Assembly: GCF_009914755.1 (NCBI RefSeq)
Contig: NC_060948.1
Strand: one strand, 5' to 3'
Length of the DNA stretch: 64,000 bases
From: the human T2T-CHM13v2.0 reference genome, Homo sapiens
Shown piece after piece: positions 16,172-55,849 of the stretch (its first letter is position 1; each line of letters opens with the position of its first letter). The translations under genes were made by a program, and so were the position numbers. The notes beneath the pieces were generated by a model. The model worked only from the letters and a program-made list of their open reading frames with translations. It searched no databases and was not told the DNA's origin.

Positions 16172-19100
16172 GTGGTCTACCTATTTTATTATTTTTTTCA
16201 AAAACTGTCTCCTGGATTTATTGATTTTTTGAAGTATTTTTCATATCTCTATCTCCTTCACTTCTGCTTTGATCTTGGTTATTTCTTGTCTTCTAGCTTT
16301 TGAGTTTGTTTGCTCTTGGTTCTCTAATTCTTTTAGTCATGATGTTAGGATGTCGATTTGAGATCTTTCTAGCTTTTTGATGTGGCATTTAGTGCTATAA
16401 ATTTCCCTCTTAACACTGCTTTAGCTATGTCCCAGAGATTCTAGTATGGTGTCTCTTTGTTCTCATTTGTTTCAAGAAACTTCTTGATTTTTTTCCCTTA
16501 ATTTTGTTGTTTACCCAGGAGTCATTCAGAAGTAGGTTGTTCAATTTCTATGTAGTTGTGTGGTTTTGTATGAGTTTCTTAATCCTGAGTTTTAATTTGA
16601 TTGCGCTGTGGTTTGGGAGACTGTTTGTTATGATTTCAGTTCTTTTGCTCTTCCTAAGGAGTGTTTTACTTCTGATTATGTGGTCAATTTTGGAATAAGT
16701 GTCATAGGAGAATATAAATGCTGTTGATTTGGGGTTGAGATTTCTGTAGATGTCTATTAAGTCCACTTGATCCAGAGCTGATTTCAAGTCCTGAATATCG
16801 TTGTTAATCGTCTAATATTGGCAGTAGGGTGTTGAAGTCTCTCACTATTATTGTGTGGGAGTCTAAGCCTCATTGTAGGTCTGCAGGAACTTGTTTTATG
16901 AATCTGGGTGTTCCTGTATTGGGTGCATATTTATTTAGGATAGTTAGCTCTTCTTCTTAAATTGATGCTTTACCATTATGTGATGGACCTTCTTTGTCTT
17001 TTTTGATCTTTGTTGGTTTAAAGCCTATTTTGTCAGAAACTATGATTGCAACCCTTGCTTTTCCTTGTTTTTCATTTGCTTGGTAAAATTTCCTCCACCA
17101 TTTTATTTTGAATCGGTGTGTGTCTTTTCATGTGAGATGGGTCTCTTGAATACAATACATCAAAGGATCTTGACTCTATCCAGTCTGCCATTCTGTGTTT
17201 TTTAATTGGGGCATTTAGTCCATTTACATTGAAGGCTAAATTTGTATGTGTGAATGTGATCCTGTCTTCGTAATGTTAGCTGGTTATTTTGCAGACTTGT
17301 TGATGTAGTTGTTTAGTAGTGTCATTGATCTGTGTACTTCATTGTGTTTTTGTAGTGGCTGGTAACAGTTTTTCTTTTCCATATTTAGTGCTTCCTTCAG
17401 GAGCGTTTGCAAAGCAAGCCTGGTGGTGCTGAATTCTGTCACCATTTGATTGTCTGAAAAAGATTTAATTTCTCCTTTGCTTATGAAGGTTAGTTTGGCC
17501 AGTGAAATTACAGGTTGTAAATTATTCCTTTTAAGAATGTTGAATATTGCCTCCCAATCTCTTCTGGTTAGTAAGGTATCTGCTGAGAGGTCCACTGTTA
17601 GAATGATGGGCTTCCATTTATAGGTGACCTGCCCTTTCTCTCTGGCTGCAGTTAACATTTTTTCCCTCATTTTGACCTTGGAGAATCTGAAGATTATGTG
17701 TCTTGGGGTTGATATTCTCATAGAATAGCTTATTGGGGTTCTCTGGATTTACTGAATTTGAATGTTGGCCTCTCATGCTAGGTTGGGAAAGTTCGCCTGG
17801 ATGATATCCTAAAGTGTGTTTTCCAACTTGGCTTTGTTCTCCCTGTCTCTTTCAGTATCCCATAAATTGGAGGTTCAATCTTTTTACATAATCCCATAGT
17901 TCTCAGAGGTTTTGTTCATTCTTTTTAATTCTTTTTTTTCCTAATCTTTTCTGTCTGACTCATTTCAGCAAGACAGTCTTCAGGCTCTGATATCCTTTCT
18001 TCTGCTTGGTCTATTTGACTATTGATACTTGTGTTTTTATTGTGAAGTTCTCAGGTTCTGTCTTTCAGCTGTACCAGGTTATTTATAATCCTCTCTAAAC
18101 TGGTTACTCTAGTTAACACCTCCTGTAATGTTTTATCAGGATTCTTATCTTCTTTGCGATGAGTTAGAATACATTCCTTTAGCTCAACAAATTTTGTTCT
18201 TATCCATCTTCTGGAGCCTACTTCTGTCACTATATCCATCTCAGCTTCAGCCCATTTCTGTGCCCTTGCTGGAGAAGTGTTGTGATCATTTGGAGGAGAA
18301 GAGGTTGTCCGGCTTTTTGAGTTTTCAGCATTTTTGCATTGATTATTTTTCATCTACATGGGTTTATCTATCTTTAATCTCTGAGGATGCTGAACTTTGG
18401 ATAGAGTTTTTGTGGGGACTTGTTGTTGTTGTTGTTGTTGCTTCCTATTTGTTTTTCTTTTAGCAGTCAGGCCCCTCTACATAGGGCTTCTGTGTCTTGC
18501 TGGGAGTCCACTTCTTACCCTATATGTCTGGGTCCCTCCTGGAGGTACTATCGGTGGAGGCTGCAGAACAGCAAGGGTGGCAGCCTTCTTCTTCCTGTGG
18601 GAGTTCTGTCCCAGAGAGGCACTGACCTGATGTTAGCTGGAACACTCCTGTATGAGGTGTCTGGAGCTCCTGTTGAAAGGTCTCTCACCCAGTCAGAAGG
18701 AGTGGGATTAGGGACCCACTTAAGCAGTCTGGCTGCCTCTTGTCAGTGCAGGTGTGCTGCCCTGGGGAGGATTCCTATTGACTGGGTGTCCCTGATTCTC
18801 CAGAGCCAGCAGCCAGAAAAGATTAAGACAGCTGATCCACAATACCACAGCAGCCCCTCCTAATAGGGGCTGATATCTCAGGGATATCAGAGTTCTGTCC
18901 ATAAATCCCTGGGTGGGAATGCTGAAATTCCCACAGGGAGGACTCTCTGCATGAGAAGGAGTGGATCCAGGTCTCACTTAAAGAAGCAGTCTGGCTACTA
19001 ACTTCCCCAGCCACTGTACTGCACTGTAGAGTATTGCTCCCAAGCCAGAAAACCCAATTTCACTGGCATACAGCAGGGGAAAATGGCTGACTGCAGCCAC

Positions 19101-19710
19101 AGTGATGGTGGCCGCCCCTTTCCTGCCAGAACTTAGTCTGCTTAGGCAGCCTTCAGCCTGCTGCGCTGACCAGTGTGGATGTCAAGCCAGTGATTTTAGC
19201 TTGTGGGGTTCTGTAAGCATGAGGCAGCTTGGCTCCCTGGCTTCAGTCCCCTTCCCTTGGGAGTGAACAAATTTTCTTCCTCATCGGAGTTCCTGGAACC
19301 AGGGTGTGCAAAAAATTCCTGTGTCTCAGTGCCTGTTCAAGTGGTTACCCACCTGAGCAACCCTCATGAGTCTGCACAGCTCTGTGCTTCAGACCACAGG
19401 CCTGGTGGCATGAGCTTATGTGGGGACCTCCTGGTCCACAGCTTCCGAAGACCCATGGGAAAAGCATGGTTTTTAGGAAGAGGTAGCACAGTCCTTCACC
19501 ACTTCCCTTGGCTCAGGGGAGGAAGCACCCTTTGTCATGTGCAGCTCCCAGGTGGGCCCTCACTCCACCTAACTTTTCCTCACTCTCAGTGGGTTGCGCC
19601 AACTGCCTCATCAGTCACAATGAAAGAATCTTGGTACCTCAATTGAAGATGCAGAATTTATCCATGGTTTTCATCCTTTTCGTGAAAGCTGCAATGCAGA
19701 GTTGTTTCTT

Positions 19711-22700
19711 TCTTTTTATTGTTATTATTATACTTTAAGTTCTGGGGTACATGTGTGGAGCGTGCAGTTTTGTTACATAGGTATACATGTGCCATGATGG
19801 TTTGCTGCACCCATCAACCTGTCACTTACATTAGGTATATCTCCTAATGCTATCCCTCCCCTAGTCCCCCACCCATCGACAGGCCCCAGTGTGGGATGTT
19901 CCCCTCCTTAGATTGCAAAATTTTTTTCCCATTCTGTAGGCTGCCTGTTGACTCTGATGATAGTTTCTTTTGCTATGCAGAAGCTCTTTAGTTTAATTAG
20001 ATCCTATTTGTCAATTTTGGCTTTTGTTGCCATTGCTTTTGGTGTTTTAGACATGAAGTCTTTACCCATTCTTATGTCCTGAATGTTATTGCCCAGGTTT
20101 TCTTCTAGGATTTTTATGGTTTTAGTATTTATATTTAAGTCTTTGCTCCATCTTGAGTTAATTTTTGTATAAGATATAAGGAAGGGGTCCAGTTTCAGCT
20201 TTCTGCATATGGCTAGTCAGTTTTCCCAACACCATTTATTAAACAGGGAATCTTTTTCCCATTGTTTGTTTGTGTCAGGTTTGTTGAAGATCAAATGGTT
20301 GTAGATGTGTGGTGTTATTTCTGAGGCCTATGTTCTGTTCCATTTGTCTGTATATTTCTTTTGTACCACTACTATGCTGTTTTCATTACTGTAACCTTGT
20401 AGTACAGTTTGAAGTCAGATAGTGTGATGCCTCCAGCTTTGTTCTTTTTGCTTAGGGTTGACTTGGATATGCAGGCTCTTTTTTTGGTTCCATATGAAGT
20501 TTAAAGTAGTTTTTTCCAATTCTGTGAAGAAAGTCAGTGTTATCTTGATGGGTAGAGCATTGATTCTATAAATTACTTTAGGCAGTATGCCCATTTTCAC
20601 TATATTGATTCTTCCTTTTCATGAGAATGGAATGTTCTTCCATTTATTTGTGTCCTCTCTTCTTTCCTTGAGCAGTGGTTTGTAGTTCTCCTTGAAGAGG
20701 TTCTTCACATCCCTTGTAAGCTGTATTCCTAGGTATTTTTTTCTCTTAGTAGCAATTGTGAATGGGAGTTAACTCATGATTTGGCTCTCTGCCTGTTATT
20801 GATGTATAAGAATGCTTGTAATTTTTGCAAATTGATTTTGTATCATGAGAGTTTGCTGAAGTTTCTTATCAGCTAATGGAGATTTTGGGCTGAGATGATG
20901 GGGTTTTCTAAACATACAATCATGTCATCTGCAAACTGAGACAATTTGACTTCCTCTCTTCCTATTTGAATATGCTTAATTTCTTTCTCTTGCCTGGTTG
21001 CCCTAGCCAGAACTTCCAATATTATGTTGAATAAGAGTGGTGAGAGAAGGCAGCCTTGTCTTGTGCTGGGTTTCAAAGGGAATGCTTCCAATTTTTGTCC
21101 ATTCAGTATGATATTGGCTGTGGGTTTGTCATAAATAGCTCTTATTATTTTGAAATATGTTCCATCAACACCTAGTTTATTGAGCATTTTTAGTATGAAG
21201 GGCTGTTGAATTTTGTCAAATGCCTTTTTTGTGTCTATTGAGATAATCATGTGGTTTTTGTCACTGGTTTTGCTTACCCGATGGATTACTTTTATTGATT
21301 TGTGTATGTTGAACCAGTCTTGCATCCCAGGGATGAAGCTGACTTGATTGTGGTGCATAAGCTTTTTGATGTTCTGCTGTAGTCAGTTTGCCAGTATTTT
21401 ATTGAGGATATTCACTTCAATGCTCATCAGGGATATTGGCCTAAAATTCCATTTTTCTTGTGTCTCTGCCAGGTTTTGGTATCAGGATGATGCTGGCCTC
21501 ATGAAATGAGTTAGGGAGGCTTCCCTCTTTTTCTATTGTTTGGATTAGTTTCAGAAGGAATGGTACCAGCTCCTTTTTTTTTACCTCTGGTAGAATTTGG
21601 CTGTGAATCCGTCTGCTCCTGGACTTTTTTAGTTGGTAGGCTTTAATTACTGAGTCAATTTCATAACTTGTTAATGGTCTTTTCAGGGATTCAAATTCTT
21701 CCTGGTTTAGACTTGGGAGAGTGTACATGTCCAGAAATTTATTCATTTCTTCTAGGTTTTCTAGTTTATTTGAGTAAAGGTGTTTATAGTATTCTCTGAT
21801 GGTAGTTTGTATTTCCAGGGCTCAGTGATGATATTTCCTATATCATTTTTTATTGAGTCTATTTAATTTTTCTCTTTTCTTCTGTATTAGTCTGGCAAGT
21901 GATCTATCTATTTTGTTAATTTTTTTTTCAAAAAAACATCTCCTGGATTCATTGATTTTTTGAAGGGTTTTTTGTGTTTCTATCTCCTTCAGTTCAGCTC
22001 TGATCTTAGTTATTTCTTGTCTTCTGCTAGCTTTTGAATTTGTTTGCTCTTCTCTAGTTCTTTTAATTTTGATGTTTGGGTGTCAATTTGCTTTCTCTTG
22101 TGGGCATTTAGTGCTGTAAATTTCCCTCTACACACTGCTTTAATTGTGTCCCAGAGATTCTGTTATGTTGTGTCTTTGTTCTCATTTGCTTCAAAGAACA
22201 TGTTTATTTCTGCCTTCATTTCATTGTTTACCCAGTAGTCATTCACCAGCAGGTTGTTCAGCTTCCAAGCAGTTGTAAAGTTTTGCGTGAGTTTCTTAAT
22301 CTTGAGTTCTAATTTGATTGCACTGTGGTCTGAGATACAGTTTGTTACAGTTTCAGTTCTTTTGCATTTGCTGAGGATTTCACTTCTTTTGCATTTGCTG
22401 ACCAATTATGTGGTCAATTTTAGAGTAAGTGTGATGAGGTCCTGAAAAAAGTTTATATTTTGTAGATTTGGGGTGGAGAGTTCTGTAGATGTGTATCAGG
22501 TCTGTTTGGTCCAGGACTGAGTTCAAGTCCTGAATATCCTTGTTAATTTTCTGTCTCATTGATCTGCCTAACATTGACAGTGCGTTGTTAAAGTCTCCCA
22601 CTATTATTGTGTGGGAGTCTAAGTCTCTTTGTAGGTCTCTAAGAACTCACTTTATAAATCTGAGTGTGTCTGTATTGGGTGCATATATATTTAGGATAGT

Positions 22701-25406
22701 TAGCTCTTCTGTTGCATTGATTGCTTTACTATGATGTAATGCCCTTCTTTGTCTCTTTTGATCTTTTTTGGTTTAAAGTCTGTTTTATCAGAGATTAGCA
22801 TTGCAACTCCCACTTTTTTTCCTTTTCATTTGCTTGGTGAATATTCCTCCATCCCTTTATTTTGAGCCTGTGTGTGTTTCTGCATGTGAGATGGGTCTCC
22901 TGAATACAGCACACCAATGGGTCTTGACTCTTTATCCAATTTGCCAGTCTGTGTCTTTTAATTGGGGGCATTTAGCCCATTTATGTTTAGGGTTAATATT
23001 GTTATGTGTGAATTTGATCCTGTCATTATAGTATTAGCTGGTTATTTTGCCCATTAGTTGATGAAGTTTTTCCCTAGCATTGATGATCTTACAGTTTGGC
23101 ATGTTTCTGCAGTGGCTGGTACTGGTTGTTGCATTCCATATTTAGTGCCTCCTTTAGCAGCTCTTGTAAGCCAGGTCTAGTGGTGACAAAATCCCTCAGC
23201 ATTTGCTTTTCTGTAAAGGATTTTATTTCTCCCTCACTTATGAAGCTTAGTTTTGCTGGATATGAAATTCTGCTTTGAAAATTATTTTCTTTAAGAATAT
23301 TGAATATTGGCCCCCACTCTCTTCTGGCTTGTAAAGTTTCTGCAGAGAAATCCACTGTTAGTCTGATGGGCTTCCCTTTGTGGGTTACCCGACCTTTCTC
23401 TCTGGCTCCTTTAGCATTTTTTTCTTCATTTCAACCTTGGTGAATCTGAAGATTATGTATCTTGGGGTTGCTCTTCTTGAGGAATATCTTTGTGGTGTTC
23501 TCTGTACTTCCTGAATTTGAATGTTGGCCTGTCTTGCTAGGTTGGGGAAGTTCTGGGTAATATCCAGAAGAGTGTTTTCCAACTTGGTTCCATTCTCCCC
23601 ATCACTCTCAGGTATAGCAATCAAATGTAGGTTTGGTCTTTTCCCATAGTCCGGTATTTCTTGGAGGCTTTGTTTCTTCCTTTTTATTCTTTTTCCTGTA
23701 ATCTTTTCTTCTCACTTTATTTCATTAAGTTGATCTTCAATCACTGATATCTTTTATTCCACCCGATCAATTTGGCTATTGATACTTGTGTATGCTTCAT
23801 GAAGTTCTCATGCTGTGTTTTTCTGCTCCATCAGGTCATTTGTGTTTTTCTCTAAAGTGATTATTCTAGTTAGCAATTCGTCTAATCTTTTTTCAATGTT
23901 CTTACCTTCCTCGCGTTGGGTTAGAATATGCTCCTTTAGCTCAGAGTTTATTACCCATCTTCTGAAACCTACTTCTGTCAATTCAACAAACTCATTCTCC
24001 ATCCAGTTTTGTTCCCTTGCTGGTGAGGAGTTGTGATCCTTTGCAGGAGAAGAGGCATTCTAGTCTTTTGAATTTTCAGCCTTTTTGCACTGGTTTCTCC
24101 CCTTGTTTGTGGATTTATCTACCTTTTTGTCTTTGATGTTGGTGACCTTAGGATGGGGTCTTCTGGTGGACATGCTATTCTTTTCTGTTTGTTAGTTTTC
24201 ATTCTAACAGTCAGGCCCCTCTACTTCAGGTCTGCTGGAGTTTCCTGGAGGTCCACTCCCTACCCTGTTTGCTGGGTATCACCAGCAGAGGCTGTACAAT
24301 AGCAAAGATTGCTGCCTGTTCTTTCCTCTGGAAGCTTTGCTTCAGAGGGGCACCTGCCAGATGCCAGCCAGAGCTCTCCTGTTTGAGATGTCTGTTAGCC
24401 CCTACTGGGAGGTGTCTCCCAGTCAGAATACATGGGGGTCTAGGACCCACATGAGGAGGCATTCTGACTCTTAGCAGAGCTTGAATGCTTTGCTGGGAGG
24501 TCGGCTGCTCTTTTTAGAGTCATTGGCCAGGGACATTTAAGTCTGATGAAACTGCACCCACAGTTGCCCCAGGTGCTCTGTCCCAGGGAGATGGGGGTTT
24601 TATCTATATGCCCTTGACTGGGGCTGCTGCCTTTTTTTCAGAGATGCCCTTCCCCAAGAGGATAAATTTGGCAGTCTGGCCACAGCAGCCTTGGTGAGCT
24701 GCAGTGGGATCTACCCAGTTTGAACTTCCTGGCTGCTTTGTTTACACTGTGAGGTGTAAACACCTACTCAAGCCTCAGCAATGATGGATGCCCCTCCTCC
24801 CACCAAGCTCCAGTGTCCCATGTTGATCTCAGACTGCTGCTGTCCTGGCAGCAAGAATTACAAACCAGTGGATCTTAGTTTGCTGGGCTCTGTGGGAGTG
24901 GGACCCGCTGAGCCAGACCACTTGGCTGCCTGGCTTCAGCCCCCCTTTCCAGGGGAGTGAACAGTTCTGTCTCACTGGTGTTCCAGGCACCACTGGCGTA
25001 TGGACAAACAAAAACAACAAAAAAGGCTCCTGCAGCTAGTTCTGTGTCTGCCCAATGGGCAGTTTTGTGCTTGAAACCAAGCACCCTGGTGGGGTAGGCA
25101 TCAGAGGGAATCTCCTAGTTTACAGGTTGCAAAGACTGTGAGGCAAGTGCAGTATCTGGGCTGGAGTGTGAATGCTTCCTCAGGCTCAGACTCTCATGGC
25201 TTACCTTGGGTAGGGGGGAAAATTCCCTGATCCCTTGCACTCCCTGGGCAATGTGAAGCCCCACCTGGCTTCAGCCCACACTCCGTGGGCCATACCCACT
25301 GTCCAACCAGTCCCAGTGAGATGAACTGTGTACCTCAGTTGGAAATGCAGAAATCACCTGCCTTTGAGCAGAGCTGTTTCTCTTCAGCCATCTTGGCTTC
25401 TCTCCC
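19711..25406 (-). mobile_element. Near full-length L1PA (PA7/PA8-like) with a deletion of about 0.7 kb near the 3' end
   Basis: 3' end TATACTTTAAGTTCTGGGGTACATGTG. RT fragment 20873-21358 (SQFADDMIV), ORF1 fragments 23089-24002 and 5' end CAGCCATCTTGGC. Sequence jumps at about 19908. Confidence 0.92.
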
Positions 25407-35518: not shown

Positions 35519-39345
<3,827 letters not shown>

Positions 39346-39408
39346 TATGATGTTAGTTGGTTATTTTGCTCATCAGGTGATGCAGTTTCTTCCTAGTATC
39401 GATGGTCT

Positions 39409-40421
39409 TTACATTTTGGAATGTTTTTGCAGTGGCTGGTACCAGTTGTTCCTTTCCATGTTTAGTGCTTCCTTCAGGAGCTCTTTTAGGGCAGGCCTTG
39501 TGGTGACAAAATCTCAGCATTTGCTTGTCTGTAAAGGATTTTATTTCTCCTTCATTTACGAAGCTTAGTTTGGCTGGATATGAAATTCTGGGTTGAAAAC
39601 TCTTTCTTTAAGAATGTTGAATATTGGCCCCCACTCTCTTCTGGCTTGTAGAGTTTCTGCCGAGATATCCGCTATTAGTCTGATGGGCTTTCCTTTATGG
39701 GTAACCTGACCTGTCTCTGTGGCTGCCTTTAAGATGTGTTCCTTCATTTCAACTTTGATGAATCTGACAATTATGTGTCTTGGAGTTGCTGTTCTTGAGG
39801 AGTGTCTTTGTGGCATTCTCTGTATTTCCTGAACTTGAATGTTGGCCTGCCTTGCTAGGATGGGGAAGTTCTCCTGGATAATATCCTGCAGAGTGTTTTC
39901 CAACTTGGTTCCATTCTCCCCGTCACTTTCAGGTACACTAATCAGATGTAGATTTGGTCTTTTCACATAGTCCCATATTTCTTAGAGGCTTTGTTTGTTT
40001 CTTTCTACTCTTTTTTCTGTAAACTTCTCTTCTCATGTCATTTCATTCATTTGAACTTCAATCACCGATACCCTTTCTTCCAGTTGATTGACTGGTTACT
40101 GAAGCTTGTGCATTCATCACGTAGTTCTTGTGCCATGGTTTTCAGCTCCATCAGGTCATTTAAGTACTTCTCTACAGTGGTTATTCTAGTTAGCCATTTG
40201 TCTAATCTTTTTTCAAGGTTTTTAGCTTCTTTGCAATGGGTTCGAACTTCCTCCTTTAGCTTGGAGAAGTTTGATTGTCTGAAGCCTTCTACTCTGAACT
40301 CGTCAAAGTCATTCTCCATCCAGCTTTGTTCCATTGCTGTGAGGAGCTGTGTTCCTTTGGAGGGGGAGAGGTGCTCTGATTTTTAGAATTTTCAGCTTTT
40401 CTGCTGTGTTTTTTTCCCCTT
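39409..40421 (-). pseudogene. L1 ORF1 (RNA-binding protein), disrupted
   Basis: KRPNLHLISVPESDGENGTKLENTLQDIIQENFP and TPRHIIVRF. Frameshifted, and the start codon reads AAG. Confidence 0.9.
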
Positions 40422-46917: not shown

Positions 46918-49900
46918 CTAATAACATAACCCTTTCTGGCACAGTTTGTACACAGAATTACATATTAGTTAGAATTTTATACCTAGTAACATAAAAGTTT
47001 AGTGAAACCTTAAAAAGTAAGAAATCCTGAACTATCAGACCTGACATTTATAGATAAGAACAATTCCACACAATGTTAGAAACATGTTCCAGATCACAAC
47101 CGTTTCTTAATTGGAAATGACCCAGATACTAAATGAGCGTCAGAAATAACTTTAAGATTTTAATTTACACAAAAGGTTTACCTAAAACATTTTTCTAATT
47201 CACTGTAATTTTTACTTTTATCAAGGGAGACATGAAACATCAATTAACAAGTGTAAAATGAACATTGGTTTGGTCTGGAAAGGTGGGACAACTCAAGACA
47301 GGGAGGGGACTTGGGGTCTTTTAGATCATAGGCAGGAGAAAAGCGAATGTATTCTTTTGAGTTTCTGGTTGCCTTTCCAAAGGAAACAATCAGATATGCA
47401 TTTATCTCAGTGGGACTTTGAATAGAATGGGAGACAGATTCACCCCTAGCATCTCCCATCTTGAATTAACACTGACATTTAAAAATATCTAGCAAAGACA
47501 AACATAAAATTCAGACAAAATGTATGCTATTTGAAAGACATTTCTATTTTCACTCCACCAATAATTTTAAAGGTAGCTTGTTCAGTAAAATTATACTCAG
47601 GTCAAGTAAACTTGAAAACTGCTTAGACTTATTTACTTAATTTATGAGCGCTCTTTTACTTATAAAGGGGTCCAATAGCTTGGAACCTTCACCATGAGAT
47701 AGCAATATAACCTTGCCAGTTTTACTTTGCTCCAAGAGGTAATCCAAGGAAGGTTCTGAATGAAAATTTTGGGTAAAGGAGTCTCCATAGCAGTTTGATT
47801 TTTAAAGGCTAAACCTCCCCAGACTCCAAGGAGCACTGGGGCCAAAGAGTACCGAGTGTCCTCCTGTGGGGCCCAATCTTAGAGTATCAGATATCTCTGA
47901 CCTTAGGTTGGCAGCAGTGCCACTTTGCCTGCTTTCCCTCCAGAGCCTATTGTGCGCTTTCCTTTGGTACCTAGTTGTAATCCCCAACTTTTAGGATTTT
48001 TATAAATTGATAAGGCCACACTTTCCCATGCTTCCCATTCCATGAACTTTAATGATAGGATCTGGAGATTGCATGGGTTTCCTTTGCTCTTTCTCAGTTG
48101 AATAGGCAAAGGTAAGAATTTAGCATAAGAAAAGAAGATTTAAGTCATCAAAAACATCTGAGAGTTTGCTCCAAGCTACGTGGCATGTGGACGTCAGGGA
48201 CCATGCATGGAGAAGATTCTTAAAAAGTCCTTCCCACTTTGAGGAAGGACTATTTCCCTTTGTTCCTAGGCCTTCAGGCAGTAGCAGGGAGTGACCCCAG
48301 CCAATTGCCCTCACTCTTCAAGGAGCTACTAGGAAAGAGCCACTGAAAGACTGAAAAGGAAAGAGGGGGAAAACAAACAAACAAAAAAGACCCTGGTCCC
48401 TTAAGGAAATCAGCAGTGACAGTCAGGCTTCTCCACATGGAAACCCCTTAGTTTCACTATGTAAAAAGTAAGTAGAGGTTCCTCATGGGTGAAAAATTAA
48501 GACCCACCCAGTGTTACAAATAAATCCAGACTCTCAGCAATGCAAAGAAAAAAAAAAGAAAGAAAGAAACTGGCCAGCAACCTAGCTTAAAGGATCCTCA
48601 CATACTGCGGCAATAACTCTGTGCACAAAGTGAGAAAAAAGAAGCCGCAGGATTAGTCCCAACCACCAAGGAAAAAAAAAAGCTGTGGGACAGTAAAGCA
48701 TTCCTTGGTTAGGAGAGAAAAACTTCAGGTAATGTATTCCTTAGTCAGGTTGTCCTGGAGGTTAAAAAGAAGTGAGAAAATCCCCATAGAGCGAGGGCTG
48801 AACCTCAGAAAGAGATGAGAAATCCCTATGGGTGGTGTGGAACCTCAAAAAGTGGTGAAAAATCCCCCTGGTGGGAGGGTTGAACCTCAGAAAGAGGTGA
48901 GAAATCCCCATGGCAGGGGTTGAACCTCAAACAAACCTCCAGTAGCAAGAAAAATATTCAGAACCCCCCCTTTCCTTTCTTCTCAGGGGAAGAAAGAATA
49001 GCTCCACTCCTGCTGGTCTCTCTCCTAGTGGAAGGCGAAGGAGAGGGAAAAACAGCAGCATAGGTGGCTGGCAGAGACAAAAGAAAGATCAGCAGAAAAG
49101 AAAAAGAAAAACAAAACAAAACAAAAACTAGGAGAGGAAGTCAGAGGAACAAAAAGCAACAACAGCAAGCACAGAGCCAAACAACAGCCAGGCAGACAAT
49201 CCAAGGGTCTGTGTAAAAAAGAGGGTGAGGACCAGCACTGGGAGGAGAGCAGAGGAGGTGAAGGCATAATTCTTGCAATTTGCGGCAGGCATCTGCCAAG
49301 CCTCTGGGTCGGTGACTGCCTGGGGCCCAGACAGCAGCCATGCATATCCCACCCACCCAGCCAGAGAAACTAAGTGTAAAAACAAACGAAGAAAAGTAAA
49401 AAGGGAAATAGGGGGGAAAAAACCCAACAACAACAGGAGAAACAGACGGCCCTGCTCACAGCAGGAGCGGGAGAACTCTGGAAAGGAAAGGGAAACAGGA
49501 TGATAGAGAGAAAGATAGGAAGATAGAGTGCAAATGAGAGAGAGAGAAATAGAGGGAAAGAGTAAGAGAAAAACTGGAAGAGACATAAATCAAAGGAAGA
49601 CACAGAGGGTGAAACAAGAAAAAAGTGTAAAAGGAAGGCAGAAAGTTAAAACATCTTAACGATTGTCTGTAAAAGTCATAAGAAAAACTATAAAAGGGAA
49701 TTTATGCAAAAAATGTATAATTTAAAAGTAATTAGTCCTCCTGAATGTAAAAGTGTTTTAAAAAAACAGTTTATGTACAAGGTATGTAAGAAAAATATAA
49801 TGTACTTTTAATAACAGGATTGTAAGGAGGCATAAGAATATGGATTTTTACCTACATTAAAGGCTAAACATTTTTTTTGTTTGTTTTAAAGGTTTAAGCA

Positions 49901-50499
49901 AGTTTTAAAATGTTAATTGTAAAGAAAATTCTGTGTGTAAACATCCTGGCTAAAGTTAAAGGGGTATCATCCAGTTTATCTGTGAACTGCACATTAAAAT
50001 AAAAGCTCAATAAATTTTTCTTAAAGCACTAACCTGCTCTTTAACAAACATTGTAAGAAGTTAAAAAGAGTCTATAAAATTCTTACCTTATAGTCAGACA
50101 TTAAAATTGAATAAACAATGCCTATAAAATTTTATTAAAATTAAGTTTAACATTAATAGCACATTAATATAAAGGTAAAATTTAACTTATCTGGTATAAA
50201 GTCATACAAAAACATTGTCAAATATAAAATGGTGTTTAGTTTTCTTAGGCCTAAAGGTGGCCAGGTAAGTCACAAGGTCCCTCATCCCCAAGGCTATAGC
50301 ACGTAGGGGTGGTAAAGGCCACAGGAAAGCCAAACATTAAGAAGGGGCAGGGTCGCAGTGTCCCCTGGGTGGTGCTAAGTAGGAATAGCGCAACGGGCAT
50401 CACCATGATGCCTCAAGCCCCAGGATATGCATCAGAAATTATATATTAATTTATCTTCCACTTTCCCTTCCCTCAGAACTAAAAGTTCAGAACAAAAAG

Positions 50500-52330
50500 T
50501 GGCACAGGTACCACCCCTAGAATTTCCAGTACACCAGCACCAGCCTAAAAACCATGTTCTCATCAAAAGATAGAAAGAAAAAAAATGCAAGCTATCCTGG
50601 GAAGAACCCTATTTTATGCTGTTAACCACTAAGACTGCCATCCTCACAGATGAGTAAAAAATGGACCCACCATACAAAAGTCAAAAAAAACTTGCCTCAC
50701 AAAATCATGGGTTACTGTACTAAAATCAAGCCCTACTAAGTTAAAGTTAAAAAAAAAGTTTAATTTTCTTGTATCTTCTATATTGCTTCCTTTCCTTTCA
50801 TTATTGTCTTACAAGCTCCTTGGTTATTAATGTAACTAAGTCTGACTCACCTCAGATCATTGCCTTTAATCTTTGCTCTGTCATACCTTGTGGAAATGTA
50901 AAAGATCAACAACAGCTAGGCTTTTCACACAAATACTTATGTTCCAGCCCTCTAATTGACACAGTTACCCCAAGCACTTGTTGTAATGACCTGCAGCCAA
51001 GATGCTGATTTCCTGCTCCTACAGCCTGGCAACCTTGTAGTGAATGGGACCACATCCCATAAACTACCGAGAAGCAAAGTTAGACTTCCATGAAAAAGGT
51101 TTGTGCAGATCTAAAACCCCTCATCTATTTCACTAAAAGGACTACCCCTTCTAACTGTCGACCTTATCAATGTAACCCTGTCCTTCTCTCTATCACCACC
51201 TCCACCTTAACTAACTCTAGACCTCCCCTTAGTCAATTCTGTTGTATGGGAATTAACATAAATGGAAAAGACCCCCTAGATATTTTTTAAATACCCATTT
51301 TTCTCCCATCTTCCCCTTCTTCAGTAGCCTCAGTTCTAAGTTCCACACCGGTTACTCCTACATCTAATAAAACTAGGATGTTTATTGTAAAAATAAAAAA
51401 TCAAGACAGACCTTAACCATCAAGACAAAATATCAGGATGCAAATGCCTGGCTGAAATGGATTAAATATTCCATTCTCACTTTAAATAAAAGCAATTATT
51501 GTGCTTGTATACACGGTAGGCCAGAGGCCCAGATTGTCCCCTTTCCACTCAGATGGTCTTCTCATCAACCAAATATGGACTGTACGGTGGCTCTTTTTCA
51601 AAATCCCACTGCTTGAAATAATCCGTCATACTGAGCTCTCTCTGCTGTTTCCTGAAATTCAACACCCTATGGGTCAGTCCCTGAGGGCAATCCAGCTTCC
51701 ACCTCTAAATGCCAATTTTGCTTTGTGCCTCACATGGGAGGAGGAAAATTTGGTATTCCTTGAAAGCATAAAAGAATACAAGAAGCACAAGCCCTTCCAA
51801 GAGCTTGCCCATCAGTCCATGCTTAGCCATCCCCAAGCAAATGTATAGTGGTACTGTAAAGGACCTTTACTAAACACTCTGACAAATAATTGAAGCAGTA
51901 CCTATGCTCTAAACGAATTGGCTATCCCCTTCACCCTGGCATTTCATCAGTCTAAAAAGGTAAAAACAAAACACCGCAGGCCAAAACAACTCTGAAGTCT
52001 TTTAATCCTCAGATTTATATAAATGTTATTAAGGTCCTATAAGAAGTGCCAAATAAGTTTAAAACACAAAATCAAATAGCTGTGAAATTTGAATCCATGT
52101 TGTTCTGGCAGGTAACTATAAATTAAAAAAAATTAACTTCAATTCTCACCTTGTTCACTCTTATTATTGGTGTACTTAGTCTTATAAATTGTTATATTAT
52201 TCCCTGACTTCAAAGTTTTATACAAAAACTTGTCTCTGCCACGCTTACAGAGTTAACTCCTAACTCTTCTCCACAGTATTAAAAAAAATTACTTCTCTTA
52301 AAAGAACAAAGAAAACAATTGTCAAAACAT
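50500..52330 (+). pseudogene. Integrase C-terminus and env remnants of the inner provirus
   Basis: Manual translation gives HQHQPKNHVLIKR*, WEEPYFMLLTTKTA, WTHHTKVK, YQDANAWLKWIKY and CACIHGRPEAQIVPFPLRW. Many stops and frameshifts. Confidence 0.8.
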
Positions 52331-52378
52331 ATTAAACAAGTTTAAAGGGAAATCATAAAATAATAAGAGGGGGAATAT

Positions 52379-52893
52379 TGTAAAAAGTAAAGTAGAGTTT
52401 CCTCTTCAAAGACTTTCCTCCCCATCTAATTAGGAATAAATAGTAACTTCTCTTAGAAGCAAAATCTATTCAAAGACCTGTGCTCCTAAATATTTTCTCT
52501 GGCATGCTTATACTGGTCCAAGCAAGCATTAAGTCGTAGCCTGTTCCTCTTCCTTATTTAAATGCATTTTACCTTTCTCAGCATTCCACAAGTTACTTTC
52601 TCCTTCCTTTGTTCTCCTCTACCTTTGCCTCTTTTAAAAAGTTCTAAGTTGCTAGCCAATCAAAACAAATACAAAATTTGACATCCCATTCCAGCCAATG
52701 GAAACCCAACACAGCAGTGAGGTGGACACATCAGGTTATAAATGATTGTCTCCTTTGTTCAGTGTACTCTCATTTCAAAACTACCGGCGAGTGTACTCTT
52801 TCTGCAGGAAGTAAAAATGGCCTTTCTAAATAAATTAAATTTATGTTCAAGTGCTATTTCTTTACAGCACTGGGGAAACAAGCATTTCAAACA
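52379..52893 (+). mobile_element. LTR10C-like 3' LTR
   Basis: TGTAAAAAGTAAAGTAGAG...CTCTTCAAAGACTTTCCTCCCC...AATAAA...CATTTCAAACA with TG...CA termini. Confidence 0.85.
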
Positions 52894-53056
52894 ACTGGCA
52901 TGGCCAGAAACCTGCAGTTGCTTCCATGTTTAGGTGCTGCCAACCAAGGGTCATATCTTGGAAAGGAAAACAGAGAGGGAGACATTCCCCAGTATGGAGC
53001 AGAAAGGAAAAGGAGAAAGGAAAAGACTAAACCCCAAACTTTGGGCTTACCTTTTC

Positions 53057-53074
53057 CTCCTGGCTGGCTCACCA
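53057..53074 (-). other. Primer-binding site complementary to tRNA-Arg(ACG)
   Basis: Plus strand CTCCTGGCTGGCTCACCA versus the recalled tRNA-Arg 3' end CTCCTGGCTGGCTCGCCA (1 mismatch, CpG decay). It lies 5 nt from the LTR. Confidence 0.85.
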
Positions 53075-53079
53075 AAATA

Positions 53080-53443
53080 TGTTAACAGTGGAATCTGTCC
53101 AGGTTCTTGGTATCTTGAAGAAAGAATTAGACAAGATGCACAAAAAAAGCAAGGAAGGAATGAAGGGATTTATTGAAAATGGAAGTATACTCCACAGTGT
53201 GGGAGTAGGCCTGAGCATAGAGGATCAAGGAGCTTGTTACAGAGTTTTTGTGAGTTTATAACACCCTTTACTTGGTGTATACCCTTTACTTGGTGTACAC
53301 CCTATGTAGATGGAGAGGATGAAGTAAAGTTACAAAGTCATTTACTCGGCATACACCCTATGGAGAGGATATTTCCTGTCATAGCTGAAGTGTGAATCGA
53401 CCTTATTATGTTCCCTGCCTCCAGATCCTATTTCCCTGCCTCA
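53080..53443 (-). mobile_element. MER61 5' LTR
   Basis: Homologous to 41465-41802 and adjacent to the PBS. Confidence 0.88.
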
Positions 53444-54039
53444 ATTTCATTTGTTGATTACTGGACTTGCTTCCTCTTTGGCTATTGTGTGAATAATGCT
53501 GCTATGACATGAATGAACAAGTCCTGCACCCTGGTGTGGTGATATGAATGGGGATAAGTAGAGGGTATTCTCAAAAGAGTAGAAAGGGAGGGAGCTTCCA
53601 AGAAAGAACTTGTTTAAAACTTAGCAAAAGTTCTTAAAAATTTTAAAATATTTTGCATATTTAGTTAGAATTTGGGTGAAGAAAATTTTACCAGCAATTT
53701 TCTCCTATAAAGTCTCTTTTATTTTATTTTGGCTGCCAGCACCCTGCATAAATTTCTTAATGTGTCGTCAGTATAAAGGAGCCACTGTAGCCTGGAAAGG
53801 ATATAGCTAGTCATTTTTTACCTCACTTAGAGTGGCACTTTTATTGTTATCTCCAGTAGGTGACTGGTTGCAGTGAAGAAAGGCAGCCACATCTTTCTGT
53901 CATCTTGTTTGTTTCCCTACAGTGTGCTTTATTTAAGGATCTGATTTCAGGACTGTAGTCCTCTTGTCTATGGAGCAGATAGCTCTTCCTCCTCCTTCAG
54001 TTGACATATGGACTACCTTCTGTATTTAGACTAATTGAA

Positions 54040-55140
54040 AGGTCCTGAGAGTATAAAGATGACTGAGGCAGAGCCCCTGCCCTCTACAGTCCATAGTTTA
54101 GGTGGGAAACAGAAAAGATATAAAAACACGTGCCCAGTGTAAGCAGAAAAAGGGGCAGTCCACGTAAGCCGGATAGACGTGTGTGGCTAGACGATCAGAG
54201 AAGGCCTCAGAAAAGAAGTGCCTTTGCAACGTGTCTGGAAAGATGGCAGGCTTTCCTGTGACAGAAGAGGACTGAGTTAGCGTGGCAAAGGCACAGGGGA
54301 GCCAATCAGGCATCTTTGGGGACTTCACAGAAGTTCAGTTTGTAGGGGATGTTTTTGAGGAAAAGGACAGAAAATAGAGATGAAGCTGATGAGTGAGTTT
54401 CGGGACTCCTATATCAGGCTAAGGAGATTGGACTTTGTGCTTTCAAAGAGATTTCTGCTGAAAGCATTGCTGCCCAGTTAGGAAGATCACTTTAGAGAAG
54501 GCACTGAGGATGGGTTTTGGTGGGATGTGACAAGAAGCCCATGAGAATCTGTTTGAAGCAAAGGGACAGATACAGGGGGTGTCACCAGTCATTATGATAT
54601 TCAGGAGCAGGAACCTCCAGTTCTTCATGACCTACTGAATGTTTCAGGAGGGAGAAGAGTGAGATTCTGTGAGGATGAGTCCCAGGTTGCACTCCCAGGC
54701 TGGCTCTGCGTTTAGATCCAGATGATGCGGCTCCCCGTGACGGGAAGACAGGAGAAGCAGGAGTATGCTGTGTTGTGTTTGGTTTTGTTTTGCTTTTGAT
54801 GGGGAAAGGTGGTATGGAGAATGAGGGCTGCTTTTGATGGATGGCTGGGAATGACCTTGGCTCCATTCAGGTGGAGGTGCATCCAGGAGGCAGGCGGGAA
54901 TGAAAGATTGGAGCCAGGGAGACAGGCTGGAGCTGAAAGTAGGCACAGGCTCTTGGAGATCTGGACAGGGAAGAAGTAGGAGTGGACATGAGGGAAGCTA
55001 TGGTGGGAAGAGACAAGGATGCATGGTCTATTCTGGAAGTTGAAAGAGGAAGAGAGGCAACCAGGCCAGGGTGATAGAGTTTGTATCATCCCACGTGGAA
55101 TGAGTCAATGCAAAGAAGGTTTTAAACAGCTATTCAGCAA
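54040..55140 (-). mobile_element. Old L2 fragments
   Basis: CCCTGCCCTC...CATAGTTTAGGTGGG, ATCAGAGAAGGCCTC, GGCTAAGGAGATTGGACTTT, AAGATCACTTT, GGAGCCAGGGAGACAGGCTGGAGCTG. Confidence 0.6.
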
Positions 55141-55459
55141 TTAGAGTGACAGCTGTGAGCTCACTTGGCTCATCTCCTCCAACACTTAAAGTGAAATCCT
55201 TGTTGGTGAAAAAATTGTTTTATATGATCTTCCTCTTTACAATGCACTATTCCATATTTGTAGAGTTTTCTTCTCAACTCAACTATGTATATATAAACAG
55301 AAAATGTTCCACAGTTTTAAAAGTGTACAGACTCTTCCATAATGTGCATCCTGGTAATTAATTAGTTTTCACGTTGATGAGTGATTTCACTGCATGACTG
55401 TTGGTCAACCTAAGGATTTTACTTTAAAGTCATTTATGTTTTCACTTTTTAAATTTTAA

Positions 55460-55662
55460 AGCTTACTGATATTGAGGATCCAAGAGAATGGTGGAGGGAG
55501 AGCAAGAGCACAGGTTGAAGGAATATTTAACTGTAGCCCAGGAGGCTCTCAATGCCAAGAAAGAAATCTACCAGATTAAGCAGCTGCGGTTCTAGCTGGC
55601 CTAGAAGGAATACCAGCAGCTGCACAAAATGTGTGAGGATGACAGCCAGTCATATGTCAGCT
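55460..55662 (+). pseudogene. WWC3: Decayed coding exon of WWC3 (WWC/KIBRA family; end of WW2 into the coiled coil), unprocessed
   Basis: Manual translation gives LTDIEDPREWWR/(1-nt deletion)/[52 protein letters not shown]. Recalled WWC3 is [67 protein letters not shown]. TAG stops lie at 55593 and 55602. A T-rich tract precedes the exon and the donor GTGAGT follows at 55663. Confidence 0.9.
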
Positions 55663-55849
55663 GTGAGTTGATGTGTCTCCTTTGGTTAACATGAATGACT
55701 TTGAAAGCTGTCTGTCTGCTAGGTTATCTGCAAACACTGACCCTTTCTCAGGCAAGATGGCTTCCAAATGTTCTGATCTCATACGGGGTAATCAATATTT
55801 GGCACTGGAATCAGATCAGCATCCTGTAGCCCCTCCTGTGGCAAAGATT

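What the first reader, a model, noticed from the sequence alone, without database searches (positions are those of the whole stretch)
55440..55670. Hidden unprocessed WWC3 exon relic, a candidate decayed Y-linked gametolog
Seen: a 203-nt segment (204 with one deleted base restored, phase 1 at both ends) that translates to a close match of WWC3. It has a frameshift near 55498, TAG stops at 55593 and 55602, ATG>AGG at the MLKEYL methionine, an acceptor that appears mutated (TTTTAA|AG) and an intact GTGAGT donor. Similarity stops at the exon edges, so this is a genomic copy and not a retrocopy. Known: WWC3 is a Hippo-pathway scaffold at Xp22 next to SHROOM2, GPR143 and TBL1X, which have Y-linked homologues or pseudogenes. 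Inference: the window is X-degenerate Y sequence that keeps a WWC3Y remnant. I do not recall a named human pseudogene for it. An old segmental duplication is the alternative.
Basis: partly seen in the sequence, partly recalled or inferred. Interest (0 to 1): 0.85.

Follow-up and report, generated by a model that had tools for sequence, protein, structure and literature searches.

The report
Known dead WWC3 exon on Y
This is a decayed leftover of one exon of the Y-linked partner of the X-linked gene WWC3, a real but ordinary relic of Y-chromosome gene loss that a 2013 survey of Y pseudogenes had already listed.

Summary
Window 55460-55662 (+) is a 203-nt copy of one internal coding exon of WWC3 (residues about 131-198 of chimpanzee WWC3, tblastn E 2e-22). 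It has a 1-nt deletion after 55497, TAG stops at 55593 and 55602, Met>Arg (AGG at 55512-55514), AA where the acceptor AG should be (55458-55459) and an intact GTGAGT donor (55663-55668). Similarity ends at the exon edges, and I found no other WWC3 exon in the window.

The interpretation, an unprocessed relic of the lost Y gametolog, is supported. The novelty is not. Supplementary Table 1 of Wilson Sayres & Makova 2013 (PMC3603307) lists WWC3 as "XAR, Stratum 4, pseudogene". It aligns this exon to the X exon at 184/203 (90.6%), with the same two TAG stops. Its printed Y string equals the window 203/203. The table also lists two further colinear exon relics 11.3 and 18.9 kb downstream, outside the window.

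RefSeq annotates no gene here (hub note). I could not check GENCODE or HGNC, so it may be unnamed, but it is published. My codon count from the printed alignment gives dN/dS near 0.9, which indicates neutral decay. I rate interest as low.

The parts
55460..55662 (+). 203-nt relic of a WWC3 coding exon. This is cds_1 of NM_015691 in the 2013 table and encodes the helix/coiled-coil stretch just after the second WW domain, residues about 131-198 of chimpanzee WWC3 P0064.
   Evidence: tblastn E 2e-22. All named hits among the 120 listed are WWC3. Identical 203/203 to the hg18 chrY:6717184-6717386 string printed in the supplement of PMC3603307, and single copy in the window.
55458..55459 (+). Acceptor position reads AA instead of AG. 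The first two exon bases, AG (X has AA), create an AG two bases further on.
   Evidence: Direct reading. The X exon start is printed. The X intron was not available, so the 'mutated acceptor' is inferred.
55497..55498 (+). 1-nt deletion relative to the X exon, causing a frameshift.
   Evidence: Frame change seen. The gap is printed at this place in the published X-Y alignment.
55512..55514 (+). AGG (Arg) where WWC3 has ATG (Met).
55593..55595 (+). Premature TAG (X: GAG, Glu).
   Evidence: Listed as TAG_153 in the 2013 table.
55602..55604 (+). Premature TAG (X: CAG, Gln).
   Evidence: Listed as TAG_162 in the 2013 table.
55663..55668 (+). Retained consensus splice donor GTGAGT. Protein similarity ends here.

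Best explanation
The segment is a non-functional, unprocessed relic of the Y-linked gametolog of WWC3. WWC3 lies at Xp22.2 in the X-added region. When X-Y recombination stopped over this region ('Stratum 4' in the 2013 table), the Y copy came free of selection. It then decayed by point mutation (many at CpG sites), small indels and deletions. Of the 22 CDS exons of NM_015691, only three are still recognisable on the Y in X order and orientation. One is in this window; the other two lie about 11.3 and 18.9 kb downstream, outside it. A fourth listed match in PAR1 looks like chance. Shown here: identity, disabling lesions, retained donor, no neighbouring exons fused to it, and identity to the published Y string. 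Taken from the paper: X-Y identity, colinear exons and stratum label. Inferred: loss of function soon after recombination stopped, and no present function.
For: Identity:
- tblastn E 2e-22.
- every named hit among the 120 listed is WWC3 or carries WWC3 sequence, at 78-86% identity.
- in a library of 1.84 billion cluster representatives, the top 17 hits score 73-85 bits and four of them (P0003, P0009, P0012, P0029) are WWC3-group hits. Scores then drop to 59 bits or less.
- the only solved relative, KIBRA/WWC1 (6j68), scores 53 bits. At 5 of the 7 positions where the chimp WWC3 row and the KIBRA chain differ, the Y copy has the WWC3 residue. One of the other two is His as in KIBRA. The last is a Lys found in neither (my reading).

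Unprocessed copy:
- A GTGAGT donor follows the exon and there is no similarity beyond either edge.
- No other WWC3 exon is found in 64 kb.

Gametolog relic:
- (PMC3603307, Supplementary Table 1). cds_1, hg18 chrX:9995326-9995530, matches chrY:6717184-6717386 at 184/203. cds_4 matches chrY:6728453-6728578 at 98/126. cds_6 matches chrY:6736053-6736126 at 57/74. All are + to + and in X order.
- The cds_4-to-cds_6 spacing is 7.6 kb on Y and 7.7 kb on X.
- AMELY exons lie at hg18 chrY:6796773-6800649, 80 kb away, in the same table.

Neutral decay:
- My codon-by-codon reading of the printed alignment gives 19 substitutions plus one 1-nt deletion. About 5 substitutions are synonymous and about 14 non-synonymous, including the 2 stops. 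That gives dN/dS near 0.9.
- The same 68 residues are identical in 44 of 117 WWC3 proteins from mammals to reptiles and birds, and nearly so in the rest.
Against: I could not align the introns or flanks to chrX because no human X DNA is reachable with these tools. The homology outside the 203 nt therefore rests on the published exon hits alone. Only 3 of 22 exons are recognisable. Their X-Y divergences are unequal: 9.4% against 22% and 23%, Fisher p 0.00035. A simple single-age neutral relic does not predict that. The paper's own pairwise estimate for the gene (XY dN/dS 0.29) is lower than my single-exon figure, but it includes a 64%-identity match in PAR1 that is probably chance. The Y location comes from the hub note, not from a test of mine.
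Confidence: 0.92

Rival explanations
1. A later X-to-Y, or other interchromosomal, segmental duplication of part of WWC3 landed near AMELY. On this view it is not a remnant of the original gametolog.
For: Only a few exons are present. Divergence differs between exons. The Y interval between cds_1 and cds_4 is half the X interval, 11.3 against 23.5 kb.
Against: The exons keep X order and orientation over about 19 kb. Neighbouring Xp22.2 genes (AMELX, TBL1X, GPR143) have Y matches in the same Yp block. Divergence of 9-23% is as old as, or older than, the stratum itself, so a 'later' copy is not needed. Shortening by deletion is usual on the Y.
Confidence: 0.04
2. A processed pseudogene (retrocopy) of WWC3 mRNA.
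For: None found.
Against: The match covers one exon only. A GTGAGT donor follows it. The residues encoded by the neighbouring exons are absent on both sides. The next matching exons lie kilobases away.
Confidence: 0.005
3. The relic has been co-opted, for example as an exon of an unannotated Y-linked non-coding transcript or as a regulatory element.
For: The donor site is intact. The exon is less diverged than the other two relics.
Against: RefSeq annotates no gene or functional element in the window (hub note). The coding frame is destroyed. dN/dS near 0.9 by my count shows no constraint on the sequence as protein. No Rfam family matches in the window.
Confidence: 0.03

Closest known systems
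The WWC3 entry in Wilson Sayres & Makova 2013 (Mol Biol Evol 30:781; PMC3603307), Supplementary Table 1. I read passages of the main text and parts 1, 5, 87 and 88 of supplementary file 3.
   Same: It is the same object. The same 203 nt appear there (203/203 identical to the window), with the same two TAG stops, classed 'XAR, Stratum 4, pseudogene'.
   Different: Nothing differs except the assembly (hg18 there, T2T-CHM13v2.0 here). The paper gives it no name, mentions it only in the table, and does not discuss splice sites.
WWC3Y of horse, alpaca/camels, grey wolf and red fox (PMC7830431 and PMC6627929, passages read; PMC6063916 and PMC6850511, search listing only).
   Same: A Y-linked gametolog of X-linked WWC3 that arose where WWC3 lies at or next to the pseudoautosomal boundary.
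   Different: In those species WWC3Y is a multi-exon, transcribed or predicted gene (21 exons in alpaca). The human copy is reduced to three decayed exons. Those papers state that WWC3 is X-specific in other species, so they overlook the human relic.
Other human X-degenerate pseudogene remnants of Xp22 genes on the Y, such as the GPR143 and SHROOM2 exon relics in the same table.
   Same: Scattered single exons at 74-88% identity to the X exon, with indels and stops, among 265 such pseudogenes reported.
   Different: The GPR143 and SHROOM2 relics carry official pseudogene names (recalled, not checked). The WWC3 relic has no RefSeq gene per the hub note.

Membership tests
WWC3 (not WWC1/KIBRA or WWC2) | Best protein matches are WWC3 orthologues. 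| tested here: met
   all named hits among the 120 listed are WWC3 or carry WWC3 sequence; there is a score gap, 73-85 bits against 59 bits or less, between the WWC3 group and everything else.
WWC3 (not WWC1/KIBRA or WWC2) | Paralogue-specific residues match WWC3. | tested here: met
   Against KIBRA only. The 6j68 alignment set beside the WWC3 alignment shows the WWC3 residue at 5 of 7 distinguishing positions (my reading). No sequence reliably named WWC2 was obtained, so WWC2 is excluded only through the score gap.
WWC3 (not WWC1/KIBRA or WWC2) | DNA-level match to the X-linked WWC3 exon. | tested here: met
   The published alignment gives 184/203. I recounted 19 substitutions plus 1 gap by eye, and confirmed that the Y row equals the window. 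I did not run my own alignment to X DNA.
X-degenerate unprocessed pseudogene (gametolog relic) | Exon-intron structure is kept and similarity is limited to exons. | tested here: met
   Donor GTGAGT at 55663-55668. The alignments stop at the exon edges. No adjacent exons are fused to it.
X-degenerate unprocessed pseudogene (gametolog relic) | Disabling mutations are present. | tested here: met
   A 1-nt deletion, two TAG stops and AA at the acceptor.
X-degenerate unprocessed pseudogene (gametolog relic) | Further exons are colinear with the X gene. | not testable with these tools
   The two other exons lie at about 66.7 and 74.3 kb in window coordinates, beyond the window end. They are known only from the paper's table.
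X-degenerate unprocessed pseudogene (gametolog relic) | Lies in the male-specific Y, with its X homologue in the matching stratum. | not testable with these tools
   The Y position comes from the hub note. The X position and 'Stratum 4' label come from the paper. No read-coverage data and no X sequence are available here.
Processed pseudogene (retrocopy) | Consecutive exons are joined without introns. | tested here: not met
   a single exon only.
X-transposed region sequence (about 99% X-Y identity, Xq21 origin; definition recalled) | Near-identity to the X. | tested here: inconclusive
   The published identity to the Xp22 WWC3 exon is 90.6%, far below 99%. Whether Xq21 holds a copy could not be tested.

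The most novel reading that the evidence does not exclude
The exon in the window is much less diverged from its X partner than the two other WWC3 exon relics 11 and 19 kb downstream: 9.4% (JC 0.10) against 22-23% (JC 0.26-0.27), Fisher p 0.00035. The older-looking part lies on the proximal, older side of the X. This could mark an unrecognised evolutionary-stratum boundary inside WWC3. That would be about 1 Mb distal of where the 2013 table switches from 'Stratum 4' (MID1) to 'Stratum 3' (HCCS), with no informative Y relic between them. It could instead mark an X-to-Y gene-conversion tract over this exon. The evidence is about 400 aligned bases from a published table, so noise or local rate variation remains the likelier reading.
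Probability: 0.12. Interest if true: 0.45.

Novelty: already known. Interest (0 to 1): 0.14.

Why it matters
It matters little on its own. The segment is one of 265 X-degenerate pseudogene remnants already catalogued on the human Y. It does have three small uses:
- It shows that RefSeq leaves such single-exon relics unannotated.
- It corrects statements in the alpaca and fox Y-chromosome papers that WWC3 has a Y copy only in horse, camelids and canids. Humans keep a dead one.
- It is a dated marker between AMELY and the distal edge of this X-degenerate block, usable for mapping strata or X-Y gene conversion.

Tried and rejected
- Other WWC3 exons in the window. tblastn with eight WWC3 or WWC3-CLCN4 proteins found only this exon. 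A very permissive search (word size 2, E up to 100) with residues 56-131 (the WW domains) and 199-420 gave best E 0.65, all chance-like. Nothing appeared near about 51.7 kb, where the WW2 exon would lie if the X spacing were kept.
- CLCN4 exons. None matched, using the three WWC3-CLCN4 fusion models as queries. This agrees with 'lostY' in the table.
- Pfam on the read-through peptide. No significant family matched, because the WWC Pfam domain lies elsewhere in the protein.
- Pfam on 25 of the 59 open frames of at least 90 aa. Only L1 ORF1 and reverse-transcriptase fragments matched. The other 34 frames were not scanned.
- Rfam over the whole window gave no match.
- T2T-Y sequence-class coordinates. 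The preprint text names the classes but puts the coordinates in a supplementary table that is closed. The journal version is not held.
- Hughes 2012 and Bellott 2014 are not held, so I could not see whether they list WWC3.
- Print searches for a human WWC3 Y copy covered 'WWC3' with 'Y chromosome' and 'pseudogene', 'X-degenerate', 'gametolog', or 'AMELY' and 'human', and also 'WWC3Y'. They returned only non-human Y papers and unrelated ones. The human relic turned up only in the supplement of PMC3603307.

Full report
**What is there**

Window 55460-55662 on the + strand reads as a coding exon that has been broken. The frame starting at 55462 gives LTDIEDPREWWR. After 55497 the sense continues in the frame that starts at 55476: [31 protein letters not shown], then a stop, LA, a second stop, and [19 protein letters not shown]. 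The two stops are TAG at 55593-55595 and 55602-55604. Directly after the segment comes GTGAGT (55663-55668). Directly before it comes a T-rich run ending in AA (55458-55459) where an acceptor AG would be expected.

**Is it more than chance, and what is it**

- tblastn of chimpanzee WWC3 (P0064, 1217 aa) against the 64-kb window gives E 2.1e-22. Residues 145-198 match at 83% identity, with a linked piece for residues about 131-143 in the other frame.
- The read-through peptide (TAG as X) found 249 proteins at E<=0.01 among 5.8 billion. Every named entry among the 120 listed is WWC3 or carries WWC3 sequence, at 78-86% identity. This includes three WWC3-CLCN4 fusion models and one seal entry labelled 'WWC2-like' that is 96% identical to chimpanzee WWC3.
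- In an exhaustive search of 1.84 billion cluster representatives, the top 17 hits score 73-85 bits and include four WWC3-group hits. Scores then fall to 59 bits or less.
- The only solved relative is KIBRA/WWC1 (6j68), at 53 bits. At 5 of the 7 positions where WWC3 and that KIBRA chain differ, the Y copy carries the WWC3 residue (my reading).
- I obtained no sequence reliably named WWC2, so WWC2 is excluded only by the score gap.

**Genomic copy, not a retrocopy**

The alignments stop at 55661. The residues encoded by the neighbouring exons are not found on either side, or anywhere else in the window, even with very permissive settings. The donor site is retained. The exon has intron phase 1 at both ends. 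The 204-nt X exon is 2 nt completing a Lys codon, 67 codons, and 1 nt opening a Ser codon (my reading).

**It is already in print**

[quoted passage not shown] They accepted relics of even one exon and reported 265 X-degenerate pseudogenes (main-text passages).

Their Supplementary Table 1 (file 3, parts 1, 5, 87 and 88) has this row: WWC3, XAR, 'Stratum 4', 'pseudogene'. It records 4 exons recovered, 478 nt, 13 indels and 3 internal stops (TAG_153, TAG_162, TGA_495).

| Exon | hg18 chrX | hg18 chrY | Identity | Note |
|---|---|---|---|---|
| cds_1 | 9995326-9995530 | 6717184-6717386 | 184/203 (90.6%) | full coverage; the exon in this window |
| cds_4 | 10018810-10018940 | 6728453-6728578 | 98/126 (77.8%) | colinear, same strand |
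| cds_6 | 10026545-10026619 | 6736053-6736126 | 57/74 (77.0%) | colinear, same strand |
| cds_21 | 10069474-10069541 | 2004504-2004578 | 43/67 (64%) | opposite strand; I regard it as chance |

The Y string printed for cds_1, with its one gap removed, occurs once in the window at exactly 55460-55662, 203/203. TAG_153 and TAG_162 are nine bases apart, as are the two stops here.

From the hg18 offsets, cds_4 and cds_6 would lie at about 66.7 and 74.3 kb in window coordinates, just outside the window. The same table puts AMELY exons at hg18 chrY:6796773-6800649, 80 kb further on. That agrees with the hub's placement of AMELY about 77 kb beyond the exon.

**How it decayed**

I read the printed X-Y alignment codon by codon (my count). 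It has 19 substitutions and one 1-nt deletion.

- About five substitutions are synonymous: Lys, Thr, Ala, Ser, Tyr.
- About fourteen change the protein: Q>D, Q>W, R>H, M>R, I>T, Q>L, E>stop, Q>stop, E>K, R>Q, A>V. Three of these take two hits each.
- Several changes fall at CpG sites of the X sequence.

With roughly 48 synonymous and 156 non-synonymous sites, this gives dS about 0.10, dN about 0.09 and dN/dS about 0.9.

The same 68 residues are identical in 44 of 117 WWC3 proteins spanning mammals, birds and reptiles, and differ by one or a few residues in the others. Essentially all protein-changing events therefore lie on the Y branch. The inference is that the Y copy lost constraint soon after it stopped recombining with the X.

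The paper's gene-wide estimates (Y-branch dN/dS 0.36, pairwise 0.29) are lower. They include the doubtful PAR1 match.

The Y interval between cds_1 and cds_4 is 11.3 kb against 23.5 kb on the X. cds_2 and cds_3 have no Y match. This fits a deletion of about 12 kb. The next interval is 7.6 kb against 7.7 kb.

**Context in the window**

- There is no Rfam match.
- L1 ORF1 and reverse-transcriptase fragments lie on the minus strand at about 17.3-23.4 kb and 35.5-40.0 kb (25 of the 59 long open frames were scanned).
- A short 40/82-nt tandem repeat lies at 48764-48931.
- GC is 37.7% and CpG observed/expected is 0.13 over the window.
- The WW2-domain exon lies 3.7 kb upstream on the X and would fall near 51.7 kb. 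It is not detectable.

**Comparison with what is known**

A live WWC3Y is described in horse, alpaca/camels, grey wolf and red fox, where WWC3 lies next to the pseudoautosomal boundary (passages of PMC7830431 and PMC6627929). Those papers say the gene is X-specific elsewhere. The human Y in fact keeps a dead remnant.

Five full-text searches found no main-text mention of a human WWC3 Y copy. It appears only in the 2013 supplement. RefSeq has no gene in the window (hub note). I could not check GENCODE, HGNC, Hughes 2012 or Bellott 2014.

**What stays open**

No human X DNA can be reached with these tools. The intron alignment, the divergence profile and the X acceptor sequence are therefore untested.

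The exon here is significantly less diverged than the two downstream relics: 9.4% against 22-23%, Fisher p 0.00035. Exon identities of neighbouring genes in the same table range from 74% to 88% for GPR143 and SHROOM2, and 93-100% for AMELY. Heterogeneity is therefore common, and the authors themselves report no sharp stratum boundaries. A conversion tract or a boundary inside WWC3 is possible but weakly supported.

From memory only, the edge between the second X-transposed block and this X-degenerate block should fall near 15 kb of the window. I could not test that.

**Verdict**

The novelty is refuted by prior publication. This is an ordinary X-degenerate pseudogene remnant, unannotated in RefSeq.

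Noticed in passing
window 55460-55662, and about 66.7 kb and 74.3 kb (outside the window): The published X-Y identities of the three colinear WWC3 exon relics are unequal: 90.6% against 77.8% and 77.0%, Fisher p 0.00035. The cause could be a gene-conversion tract, a stratum boundary inside WWC3, or noise.
   Followed up: partly
window about 49000-55459: The WWC3 exon for the second WW domain lies 3.7 kb upstream on the X and would fall near 51.7 kb. No trace of it, or of the WW1 exon, was found. It is either deleted or decayed beyond recognition.
   Followed up: partly
window 17284-23427 and 35519-39978, minus strand: L1 ORF1 (Transposase_22, dsRBD) and reverse-transcriptase fragments, broken into several frames.
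   Followed up: partly
window 48764-48931: A tandem repeat of a 40-nt unit (about 4 copies, or 82 nt x 2), 75-83% matches. Family not identified.
   Followed up: no
window 54580-55110: A locally GC-richer patch (44.5% in 54-56 kb against 37.7% for the window) with all three minus-strand frames open for 94-130 codons. Two of those frames had no Pfam match. It may be an old interspersed repeat.
   Followed up: partly
window about 15000: From memory only, the boundary between the second X-transposed block and the AMELY-bearing X-degenerate block should lie near here.
   Followed up: no
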